In this document: piece by piece, positions 33,483 to 35,707 of the stretch
Position numbering within the stretch: the first letter of the stretch is position 1
Layout: each line of letters starts with the position of its first letter
Assembly (NCBI RefSeq): GCF_006345805.1
Contig: NC_042997.1
Location: 54,560,001-54,624,000 of the forward strand
Length of the DNA stretch: 64,000 bases
Reading direction: 5' to 3'
From: Octopus sinensis
Lineage: Eukaryota
Position numbers: made by a program

Positions 33483-35707
33483 AGAACTGCACCAGGCTAT
33501 GATTGTCTGTTTTGGCATGGTTTCTATGGCTGGATGCCCTTTGTAACACCAGTCACTTTACAGAGTGTACTGGGTGCTTCTTGTGTCAGTAAGGGTACTT
33601 TTTATGTGACAAATACTTTTAATGTGACAACAACATCTATGAGCATGGATCAAAACCGTCTGATTCAAAATATAAAATATTTTACAAGTGAAAGGCCTGC
33701 TCGCTTAGCCAGCGGGGTGGCGTCATTTGAAGGCTAAAACAATGCGAAGCGCATTGTGACCAGCGATGTGTAACAACATCCGATGGCCTGGTCGGTCACG
33801 GTCACGGTGATATATATATATATATATATCAGCATCATCTAATGTCCATTTTCTATGCTGACATAAGTTGGACTGTTTGACCAGAGCTGGCAAGCTGGAG
33901 AACTGCACTAGGCTATGATTGTCTGTTTTGGCATGGTTTCTATGGCTGGATGCCCTTTGTAACACCAGTCACTTTACAGAGTGTATTGGGTGCTTTGTAT
34001 GTGCCACCAGCACCAGTACTTTTTATGTGACATTAGTATGGGTGCTTCTTGTGTACCAGTAAGGGTACTTTTTATGTGACAAATACTTTTAATGTGACAA
34101 CAATATCTATGAGCATAGATCAAAACCGTCTGATTCAAATTCATTGATACTCTTCAGTACTCTTTTATATAAAATAAAAGAAGGAAAATGCTCACAGTTT
34201 ACATAATTTTAATATAATTTTTAATATATTTTACAAGTGAAAGAGTATTGGGTTTGTCAACTGGTTTTGCTTTTGATAATCATGACATTGAAATTATAGA
34301 AGATTTTAGTCCATGTTGTGTGTGGAGAAGGGGTTGGACAAAATAATGGAAACACCTTAAAATTTCAAACAAATTAATTTTAATATGGGGCAGGACTGCC
34401 TTTGGCAGTAATTACAGCTTGAATTCTACGAGGTATGGACTTGTACAAAGTTTTAATTGTTTCCAAAGTGATTTTTGTCTATTCTTCAGTTAAAACAGTC
34501 TCCAGTTCTTGTAGTGATGATGGTGGAGGATATCAATTCCTTACTTGTTTTTCTAAAATGCACCATAAATATTCAATAATATTGAGATCTGGGAGTTGTG
34601 GTGGCCAGATAAAATGTTCAACTTCACTATAATGTTCCTTGTGCCATTCAGTAACCACTTTATCTGTGTAAATTATCATCCTGAAAGATTGTGTCTCCCT
34701 CTGGAAACAGTTCCGCAACCATAGGATGAATTTGATCATATAAAATGCTTAAATAGTCTTGACTAATAATTCTGCTATAAAGGGAAACCATTGGGCCAGA
34801 GTATTTCCAAGATATAGTCACCCAGATCACCACAGATCCACCAACATTTGGAGGAAGGCAGTTTGAGTCAAATGCTTCTTTTGGCTGTCTCCACACATAT
34901 ACTCAGCTGATGGTTGAAAATAAAGTAAAGGATGACTCATCCAAGAAAATAACATTTACCCACTGCTCTAGGGACCAATTCGGTAGGTTTTTACTCCACT
35001 CTAAATGCTTTGTAACATTTGTTTTTGAAAGTAGTGGTTTTCTGATTGCAGCCCTCCTGTGAAATCTGGCTTTGTGCAGCATCTGGCAAACAGTTTTTGT
35101 GGAAACTGGGTTCTCGAGGTAGTCATTAAACTCTGCAGTAATTTTAGGGGCTGTACTTTTGTGATCCTTTCTAACAATTTGTGTAAGAGTTTTGGTTTTC
35201 TTCCAGAGTTTTGTTTAAAAAAAATATAATAATGAAATTATTGTATACAGTGCTCAGGTGCACCACAACAATCAGACCAGCCACCGGATGCCGAAACCTG
35301 GGAATGAACCAGGGACCTTTAGATCTTCAGTTTTGATGAGGAGGTTTTTCCCTCTTTCTCAAAGGCTGTCATTACTTTCGAGACAGTACTTCTTGATACA
35401 CCAAACATTTTGGCTGTTTTTGTTACGCTAGTGCCTGCTATACAAGCACCAACAATTTGACCTTTTGAAAGTCCGATAGATCTATCATTTTAATGAATTT
35501 TAATTACCTTTTTCTGATGATATCTGAAAAGAAACAGCAATTTTAGCCAAACTTATTAAACATCACTAATAATAAATAAATAAAAACATAAAAAGAAACA
35601 AGCTTTTGAGGGTTTTATAGATATTTCAAAATTATGATGCTATGATGCTAGGTGTTTACATTATTTAGTTCAAACCCTGTATATGTGTGGTAGTGGTGGT
35701 GGTGGTG

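What the first reader, a model, noticed from the sequence alone, without database searches (positions are those of the whole stretch)
35207..35335. tRNA-Phe 3' half fused to a CR1 3' stem-loop tail: chimeric retrocopy or nascent SINE inside a Tc1 element
Seen on -: 43 nt of tRNA-Phe (40/43 to canonical), then a 19-nt linker TCCGGTGGCTGGTCTGATT with no CCA, then the terminal ~45 nt of the CR1 found at 8478-9433 (GTGC-ACCTGA-GCAC stem-loop and ATT tail). The insert interrupts a Tc1 element and is flanked by AGTTTTG at 35207-13 and 35329-35, a possible TSD that overlaps the tRNA 5' junction. Two of the three mismatches are CpG-type G>A changes; the third is A58>T. Known: SINEs arise as tRNA head plus LINE 3' tail, CR1/L2 RTs recognise a 3' stem-loop, and m1A58 causes RT misincorporation. 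Inference: this is either a 5'-truncated copy of an undescribed tRNA-Phe/CR1 SINE or a one-off template switch from CR1 RNA onto a (pre-)tRNA. The linker could be a genomic tRNA trailer, and A58>T could record the modification.
Basis: partly seen in the sequence, partly recalled or inferred. Interest (0 to 1): 0.72.

Follow-up and report, generated by a model that had tools for sequence, protein, structure and literature searches.

The report
Half tRNA-Phe fused to LINE tail
A 113-base retrocopy made of the 3' half of a phenylalanine tRNA, a short spacer and the recognition tail of a resident CR1-like LINE sits inside a dead Tc1 transposon; it is an ordinary kind of retroposition fossil that shows how SINEs begin, but whether it is a one-off or one copy of a family cannot be told from this window.

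Summary
The composite is real. On the minus strand, 35331-35289 matches the tRNA model as a 5'-cut tRNA with anticodon GAA. A 19-nt spacer follows, with no CCA. Then come 44 nt identical to the 3' end of the LINE fragment at 8.5 kb, then ATTTTTTTT. It splits a decayed Tc1 transposase gene cleanly.

Seven of 7 related transposases have a single K/R where the window has K on both sides of the insert. That points to a 3-4 bp duplication, AAAC.

The same tail occurs a third time, at 58.6 kb, joined to yet another upstream sequence. The spacer and the tRNA part each occur once in the window.

One target-primed reverse transcription by the CR1-like LINE best explains the insert. I could not decide between a one-off template switch onto a pre-tRNA-Phe (about 0.45) and a 5'-truncated copy of a SINE family (about 0.40), because no eukaryotic genome collection was available.

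A58>T fits the published m1A-U misincorporation pattern (PMC4787781), but it is a single base. This is a known kind of element, of modest interest.

The parts
35330..35333 (-). Left copy of the likely target-site duplication AAAC. Its last two bases, AC, could equally be tRNA positions 31-32 (microhomology).
   Evidence: the K codon AAA plus C lies on both sides of the insert. 7 of 7 related transposases have one K/R at this place.
35289..35331 (-). tRNA-Phe 3' half: anticodon loop with GAA, variable loop, T arm, 3' acceptor strand and discriminator A. No CCA. T at position 58.
   Evidence: RF00005, model 30-71 of 71, 23.2 bits, E 0.0021, cut at the 5' end; not found as a whole tRNA.
35270..35288 (-). 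19-nt spacer, found once in the window, ending in TT. Its last bases TCTGA resemble the LINE 3'UTR just upstream of the shared tail, so the LINE-derived part may start a few bases earlier.
   Evidence: 1 match at up to 3 mismatches (itself); alignment A2.
35226..35269 (-). LINE 3' tail: GUUGU / GGUGC-ACCUGA-GCACU stem-loop, then the start of the (ATT)n run.
   Evidence: 44 of 44 identical to 8533-8490; 3 copies of the core in the window; the stem-loop appears in the folds, but z is only -0.49 and -0.65.
35217..35225 (-). End of the insert: A plus a run of eight T.
   Evidence: The other two tails also end in T runs (4 and 5 T), so this is not a clear Pol III terminator.
35213..35216 (-). Right copy of the likely target-site duplication AAAC.
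   Evidence: codons AAA, CAA on the right flank.
34383..35471 (-). Decayed Tc1-type transposase gene, the host of the insert. It covers residues 7-343 of a 343-aa relative, with frameshifts, one in-frame stop in the tblastn alignment, and a small loss just after the insert.
   Evidence: HTH_23 3.2e-07, HTH_Tnp_Tc3_2 1.4e-12, DDE_3 5e-07; 10 relatives, best 77% identity; tblastn map; no terminal inverted repeats found.
8479..9435 (-). 5'-truncated CR1-like LINE. The ORF2 C-terminus (9435-8642) corresponds to residues 713-978 of a 979-aa relative, followed by about 150 nt of 3'UTR, the shared tail and (ATT)7.
   Evidence: ORF pieces; 38 hits, all with RVT_1, 10 of 38 also with an endonuclease domain.
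58613..58666 (-). Third copy of the same tail with (ATT)n, joined to a different upstream sequence that forms a strong hairpin. Its 5' limit is not defined.
   Evidence: 39 of 39; 54 nt, 98%; (z -4.85).

Best explanation
The reverse transcriptase of the resident CR1-like LINE made this insert in one target-primed reverse transcription. It started on the LINE's own 3' tail (stem-loop plus ATT repeats). After about 44-52 nt it jumped to the 3' end of a nuclear, unprocessed pre-tRNA-Phe. That RNA had no CCA, a trailer of about 12-19 nt ending in U, and already carried m1A58. The enzyme copied it back to the anticodon loop, stopped there, and the cDNA joined the target through AC microhomology. 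The product has no A box, so it was dead on arrival: a failed SINE birth.

Shown: the three-part anatomy, the identity of the tail, the clean split of the Tc1 gene, and the short duplication.

Inferred: that the jump happened in this very event rather than in a founder, that the spacer is a tRNA trailer, and that T58 is a modification scar.
For: - One unit, one event: the Tc1 reading frame runs on across the insert with only AAAC repeated.
- Tail: 44 of 44 identical to the LINE copy.
- One tail on three different upstream sequences, with junctions at 44 nt (insert) and 39 nt (58.6 kb). This fits a tail module that gets joined to other RNAs.
- tRNA part: keeps all 5 T-stem pairs, anticodon GAA and the discriminator, and lacks CCA. 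This points to a gene-type or precursor template, not a mature tRNA.
- Its only clash with the tRNA model's conserved residues in the T arm is U at 58. The change is the one published for m1A followed by U (PMC4787781, passages).
- No other tRNA-like sequence appears in the whole window at E <= 1, though at least 17 copies of two other SINE families lie in it. Established SINE heads here therefore look much less like tRNAs.
- Spacer and tRNA part each occur once in 64 kb.
- In primates, tRNA parts of tRNA/LINE-1 chimeras are typically half-length (PMC11838501, passages).
Against: - Copy number in the genome is unknown, and one copy in 64 kb says little.
- SINEs far outnumber RNA pseudogenes and chimeras in general (PMC3531059, passages).
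- If the host is an octopus (my recall, no tool), Octopus vulgaris has about 900 recently active SINE families (PMC13282606, passages). An undescribed tRNA-Phe family is therefore quite possible.
- A tRNA head plus a LINE tail is the textbook SINE build.
- A58>T is one base and may be an ordinary mutation.
- Scaled to the whole window, the Rfam E-value would be about 2, so the Phe identity rests on the anticodon and my recalled reference.
- The primate chimeras are mostly 5' halves in antisense, unlike this one.
- The TCTGA likeness between spacer and LINE 3'UTR may mean that part of the 'trailer' is LINE sequence.
Confidence: 0.45

Rival explanations
1. It is a 5'-truncated copy of an established or young multi-copy SINE family. 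The family would have a tRNA-Phe head and almost no body, and would be moved by the CR1-like LINE through the shared tail. A full copy would be about 145 nt, transcribed by Pol III from the A and B boxes.
For: - The build is that of a simple SINE.
- Mollusc SINEs with CR1 tails are in print: BivaV-SINE2 and BivaCORE-SINE1 in PMC4824008, Vhc_1 in PMC4758252 (passages).
- The tail is used by at least three different elements in 64 kb.
- The insert ends in a T run that could be a Pol III stop.
- General prior: SINEs outnumber pseudogenes (PMC3531059).
Against: - No second copy of the spacer or the tRNA part in the window.
- The tRNA part is far closer to a real tRNA than the other SINE heads in the window, none of which is found at E <= 1.
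- T at 58 would weaken a B box if it were in the master copy.
- This copy has 43 nt of tRNA, below the 60-nt overlap of the SINEBase definition.
- The other two tails also end in T runs, so the T run is not specific.
Confidence: 0.4
2. Source-locus model (nascent SINE). A very short 5'-truncated LINE copy landed about 19 nt downstream of a real tRNA-Phe gene that lacked an early terminator. Pol III read through to the T run after the tail, and the LINE enzyme copied this transcript. The spacer is then genomic flank, and a few copies may exist.
For: - No CCA, a spacer of trailer-like length with no run of four T, and T8 right after the tail.
- A short tail-only insertion is plausible, since the 58.6-kb copy may be one.
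Against: - It needs a chance landing next to a tRNA gene.
- RNase Z should cut such a transcript at the discriminator.
- No tRNA gene lies in the window, so nothing here shows such a locus.
Confidence: 0.1
3. It is not one event. Either two separate insertions (a tRNA pseudogene piece and a tail-only LINE copy) lie side by side, or two RNAs were joined by an RNA ligase before copying, or the junction is an assembly error.
For: RNA ligation by RtcB before retrotransposition is published for U6/LINE-1 (PMC6789731, start of abstract only seen).
Against: - One short duplication flanks the whole, and the Tc1 frame is kept.
- Both parts have the same orientation, with the tail at the 3' side, as target-primed copying needs.
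- The window has no N.
Confidence: 0.05

Closest known systems
tRNA-derived mollusc SINEs with CR1-type 3' tails (BivaV-SINE2, BivaCORE-SINE1, Vhc_1)
   Same: tRNA-related 5' part and a 3' tail shared with a CR1-clade LINE, with a conserved stem-loop taken to be the enzyme's recognition site (PMC4824008, PMC4758252; passages read).
   Different: Those have full tRNA heads, a central domain (V, CORE) and many copies. Here there is only a 3' half of tRNA-Phe, no central domain, a 19-nt spacer and one copy seen. No Phe head is mentioned in the passages I read.
tRNA/LINE-1 chimeric insertions of primates
   Same: A LINE 3' part and a tRNA piece inserted together with one TSD. The tRNA pieces are typically about half length, with break points near the anticodon loop (PMC11838501, passages; 21 loci).
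   Different: Those involve L1 with a poly(A) tail, mostly the 5' half (positions 1-37) in antisense, explained by twin priming, with TSDs of 9-19 bp. Here the LINE is CR1-like, the tRNA piece is the 3' half in sense with a spacer, and the TSD is 3-4 (or 7) bp.
U6/LINE-1 and other chimeric retrocopies made by template switching or RNA ligation
   Same: A small Pol III RNA lies at the 5' side and the LINE 3' end at the 3' side, in the same orientation, flanked by one TSD.
   Different: U6 is usually full length, joined at its own 3' end, and the LINE is L1. I saw only search listings and starts of abstracts for PMC4476161, PMC6789731 and PMC2104539.

Membership tests
SINE (SINEBase definition, PMC3531059) | Short (<1 kb) interspersed, non-tandem repeat | tested here: inconclusive
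   It is short (113 nt), but only one copy is seen in the window.
SINE (SINEBase definition, PMC3531059) | [quoted passage not shown] | not testable with these tools
   No eukaryotic genome collection is available. Protein-database stand-ins found nothing useful.
SINE (SINEBase definition, PMC3531059) | [quoted passage not shown] | tested here: not met
   This copy has only 43 nt of tRNA (model positions 30-71). A full-length relative could still meet the criterion.
SINE (general) | Internal Pol III promoter, boxes A and B | tested here: not met
   The A-box region (5' half) is absent. The B-box region has T at position 58, where the tRNA model has a conserved A.
SINE (general) | 3' tail shared with a partner LINE | tested here: met
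   44 of 44 identical to the LINE 3' end at 8533-8490.
Functional tRNA gene | Complete cloverleaf | tested here: not met
   ARAGORN finds 0, Rfam gathering finds 0, and only the 3' half aligns.
LINE/small-RNA chimeric retrocopy | Two unrelated RNA-derived parts in one orientation, LINE 3' end at the 3' side, one TSD around both | tested here: met
LINE/small-RNA chimeric retrocopy | The junction is unique in the genome (not a family) | not testable with these tools
   No genome-wide search is possible. It is unique within 64 kb.
CR1-clade LINE (element at 8.5 kb) | ORF2 with apurinic-type endonuclease and reverse transcriptase | tested here: inconclusive
   The fragment holds only the ORF2 C-terminus (RVT_1 E 0.034, below cut-off). 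All 38 relatives carry RVT_1, and 10 of 38 also carry PF14529 and/or PF03372.
CR1-clade LINE (element at 8.5 kb) | 3' end with a stem-loop and short tandem repeats instead of poly(A) | tested here: met
   (ATT)7 at the end and no poly(A). The stem-loop is short and its fold z-scores are not significant.
CR1-clade LINE (element at 8.5 kb) | Placement inside the CR1 clade on a reverse-transcriptase tree | not tested
No named reference LINE sequences were on hand.
Tc1/mariner transposon (host element) | Paired HTH DNA-binding part plus DDE catalytic domain | tested here: met
   HTH_23, HTH_Tnp_Tc3_2 and DDE_3. Residues 7-343 of a 343-aa relative are mapped.
Tc1/mariner transposon (host element) | Terminal inverted repeats | tested here: not met
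   One 16-nt inverted pair in 33900-36000, not at the element's ends. The element is decayed.

The most novel reading that the evidence does not exclude
The insert is a direct genomic snapshot of SINE genesis that failed. A CR1-type reverse transcriptase switched from its own tail onto a nuclear pre-tRNA-Phe that still had its trailer. The T at position 58 is the enzyme's misreading of m1A58, while G37 was read cleanly because the later anticodon-loop modifications were not yet made. If so, retrocopies of tRNA-like RNAs would carry readable scars of RNA modification and of the maturation stage of their template.
Probability: 0.2. Interest if true: 0.6.

Novelty: new member of a known kind. Interest (0 to 1): 0.33.

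Why it matters
SINEs are thought to arise when a LINE enzyme joins its recognition tail to a tRNA-type RNA, but the first products are rarely seen. This insert has exactly that minimal build: tRNA, a few bases, tail.

If it is a one-off, it is a caught intermediate. It gives the template as a precursor tRNA (no CCA, with trailer), the jump point just past the stem-loop, and possibly a modification scar.

If it is one copy of a family, it adds a tRNA-Phe-headed simple SINE to a genome rich in SINEs, and names its partner LINE.

In both cases, three different sequences carry one identical 39-nt tail within 64 kb. This marks that tail as the working recognition module of a recently active LINE.

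Tried and rejected
1. Whole-tRNA detection: ARAGORN, Rfam gathering and Rfam E-value with flanks found nothing. Only a stretch cut at the break point gave the tRNA hit.

2. More copies within the window: the spacer and the tRNA part are each single. The whole-window Rfam E-value scan gave 55 matches, none tRNA. Nearly all (51 of 55) were to microRNA models, which I take to be hits on the window's simple repeats; the other four were weak snoRNA/scaRNA-model hits below gathering score.

3. More copies elsewhere, by searching translated frames of the insert in protein collections. One search found no candidate. One search gave 2 weak hits (E 1e-06 and 3e-04) that lie mostly on the antisense Tc1 part (query residues 31-64). 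This is uninformative and is no evidence of absence.

4. I first took the 58.6-kb element for a SINE with a core domain plus the LINE tail. One search showed that about 58955-58765 is simply an old copy (66-73% identity to 5 of 5 compared copies) of the abundant (GAT)n-tailed SINE. The tail-bearing element lies downstream of it and its 5' limit is unknown. I withdrew the claim that it is a proven SINE.

5. T8 as a Pol III terminator: weakened, because the LINE copy and the 58.6-kb copy also end in T runs (4 and 5 T).

6. Structure of the tail: the stem-loop appears in the folds, but the z-scores are -0.49, -0.65 and +0.19. Only the 58.6-kb stretch is significant (-4.85), and that is due to its own upstream hairpin.

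7. Likeness of the spacer to the abundant SINE (shared 7- and 8-mers seen by eye): judged to be chance, not pursued.

8. Tc1 terminal repeats: none found.

'Octopod' rests on my recall of the abundant SINE's sequence and on no tool.

10. Print search. One search found 14 papers with octopus+SINE+tRNA+CR1. I read passages of 4. 'Phe' as a word start occurred 0, 0 and 1 time in the three I searched for it (the single hit is the word 'phenomenon'); in PMC13282606 I searched only 'SINE', 'CR1' and 'tRNA', not 'Phe'. One search found 4 papers, none on this topic by title or abstract. One search found 1 paper (the tuatara genome), not read. So I found no description of a tRNA-Phe/CR1 SINE, within these searches only. 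Supplements are closed. The repeat library of PMC13282606 and Supplementary Table 3 of PMC11838501 may bear on this.

A reverse-transcriptase tree for the CR1 clade was not made.

Full report
**What is there**

On the minus strand the sequence runs as follows:

| Part | Coordinates | Length |
|---|---|---|
| Tc1 coding sequence up to AAAC | ends 35333-35330 | - |
| tRNA-like stretch (its first two bases, AC, overlap that AAAC) | 35331-35289 | 43 nt |
| Spacer | 35288-35270 | 19 nt |
| LINE tail | 35269-35226 | 44 nt |
| ATTTTTTTT | 35225-35217 | 9 nt |
| AAAC again, then Tc1 coding sequence | 35216-35213 | - |

The window has no N and is 36% G+C.

**The tRNA part**

Whole-tRNA finders see nothing. 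ARAGORN finds 0 genes in the window. Rfam finds 0 families at gathering score. Of 5 weak matches in 35150-35400, none is tRNA. This is expected for half a tRNA inside other sequence.

When the stretch is cut at 35331, so that a truncated match is allowed, the single match is the tRNA model. It covers positions 30-71 of 71, at 23.2 bits (gathering 29), E 0.0021 for that 57-nt search. Scaled to the whole window this E-value would be about 2, so the model alone does not prove the case.

The alignment adds detail:
- The anticodon loop is CUGAAGA, with anticodon GAA (Phe).
- All five T-stem pairs are Watson-Crick.
- The discriminator A is present.
- The only clash with a conserved residue in the T arm is U at position 58.
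- TCC follows the discriminator, so there is no CCA.

No tool could check the count.

Of the three differences, the two G>A changes are compatible with a working tRNA: position 57 stays a purine, and pair 51-63 becomes Watson-Crick. I recall that insect tRNA-Phe has A at 57. The insert also keeps its two CpGs, and its tail shows 0 differences in 44 nt from the LINE copy. Heavy CpG decay is therefore unlikely. I take these two bases to be native to the source gene. This is inference.

**The tail and the LINE**

The 44 nt are identical to 8533-8490 (E 3.75e-20). That site is the 3' end of an element whose ORF pieces hit 38 proteins. All 38 carry the reverse-transcriptase family and 10 of 38 also carry an endonuclease family; the best hit is 59% identical. 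tblastn maps residues 713-978 of a 979-aa relative to 9435-8642.

It is therefore a 5'-truncated LINE with about 150 nt of 3'UTR, the tail, and (ATT)7 instead of poly(A). This fits the CR1/L2 type.

Its 3'UTR holds neither the spacer nor the tRNA part.

A third identical tail (39 of 39; 54 nt at 98%) lies at 58666-58613. It is joined to a different upstream sequence with a strong hairpin (fold z -4.85). I first read that element as a SINE with a core domain. One search showed that the 'core' belongs to an older copy of the abundant (GAT)n-tailed SINE lying just upstream. What carries the third tail is undefined.

The safe statement is that one 39-nt tail is joined to three different sequences within 64 kb, with junctions at 44 and 39 nt.

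**The host element and the duplication**

The flanks encode a Tc1-type transposase:
- Pfam gives HTH_23, HTH_Tnp_Tc3_2 and DDE_3.
- There are 10 relatives, up to 77% identical.
- Residues 7-343 of 343 map to 35471-34383.
- It is decayed, and no terminal repeats were found.

In alignment A1, 7 of 7 relatives read G-K-T-S-S-x, then one K (6 of 7) or R (1 of 7), then the S-G-R block. Two of 7 read K-Q-N-S-G-R-K, exactly as the window's right flank does.

The window has ...T-S-S-S-K on the left of the insert and K-Q-N-S-G-R-K-P-K-L on the right, both in the frames shown. The simplest target is therefore in frame, with only the K codon plus the next C present twice. That is a 4-bp duplication, AAAC, or 3 bp if the C is tRNA position 32.

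It arises because the target holds AAAAC twice in tandem and the tRNA supplies the T. It would be the true duplication only if this Tc1 copy had lost five bases beforehand.

**Mechanism**

Several features fit one target-primed reverse transcription by the LINE's enzyme, ending in the anticodon loop with AC microhomology at the 5' junction:
- the same orientation of both parts;
- the LINE tail at the 3' side;
- one short duplication;
- an intact target frame.

How the composite template arose is open.

For a jump, in this very event, from the LINE tail onto a nuclear pre-tRNA-Phe:
- no CCA;
- a spacer of trailer length that ends in TT;
- a tRNA part that is still tRNA-compatible;
- the break in the anticodon loop, as in primate tRNA/LINE-1 chimeras, where tRNA parts are typically half-length (PMC11838501, passages);
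- T at 58. [quoted passage not shown]

For a SINE family:
- the textbook build;
- CR1-tailed SINEs known in molluscs (PMC4824008, PMC4758252, passages);
- the general excess of SINEs over pseudogenes (PMC3531059, passages);
- if my recall of the host as an octopod is right, about 900 recently active SINE families and 13 CR1 families in Octopus vulgaris (PMC13282606, passages).

The T8 at the end could be a Pol III stop. However, the other two tails also end in T runs, so it decides nothing.

I put the one-off at 0.45, the family at 0.40, a read-through source locus at 0.10 and other readings at 0.05.

**What stayed unchecked**

- Genome-wide copy number, native tRNA-Phe genes and their flanks, read support, and the LINE clade.
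- Protein-collection stand-ins for a copy search were blank or uninformative.
- Supplements of the cited papers are closed.

**Verdict**

The TSD and the CpG reading are revised. The kind is known (tRNA plus LINE tail), so novelty is at most a new member of it. The modification-scar reading is attractive, fits the literature, and rests on one base.

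Noticed in passing
window 15099-15166, 22454-22496, 27110-27156, 29374-29416, 33515-33566, 33931-33988, 39846-39892, 47056-47102, 52702-52738, 53292-53338, 60085-60127, 62980-63004 (cores), each within a roughly 300-nt element: At least 12 copies of one abundant SINE-like family. 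It has repeated 5' units, a conserved core, a palindromic stem near the 3' end and a (GAT)n tail. From memory it resembles the major octopus SINE; no tool named the host.
   Followed up: partly
window 59180-59340 (-), 41830-41990 (+), 11697-11869 (-), 36893-36990 (-), 944-1102 (+), 11567-11625 (-): A second short repeat family, 71-80% identical among copies. It was not classified, and Rfam found no tRNA-like head at E <= 1.
   Followed up: no
window 58667-58764 (-): The sequence joined to the third LINE tail has a perfect 8-bp hairpin just before the tail (fold z -4.85 over 88 nt). It has no other copy in the window. It is either a second LINE subfamily's 3'UTR or a short non-autonomous element.
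   Followed up: partly
window 61646-62361 (-): A fragment of a different LINE reverse transcriptase (RVT_1 E 9.8e-13). It is only 22% identical to the relatives of the 8.5-kb LINE.
   Followed up: partly
window 9575-9727 (+): An open frame matches DUF4147 (E 6.1e-06, above the curated cut-off). From memory this is the N-terminal domain of glycerate kinases. It is probably a host exon, so the LINE at 8.5 kb lies next to or within a gene.
   Followed up: partly
window 41749-41813 (+), and many CA/TA-rich tracts (e.g. 23000-23500, 49050-49830, 53450-53650): There is a long (ATT)n run unrelated to the LINE tail. Many microsatellites produce dozens of sub-threshold microRNA-model hits in Rfam; I take these to be artefacts.
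   Followed up: no
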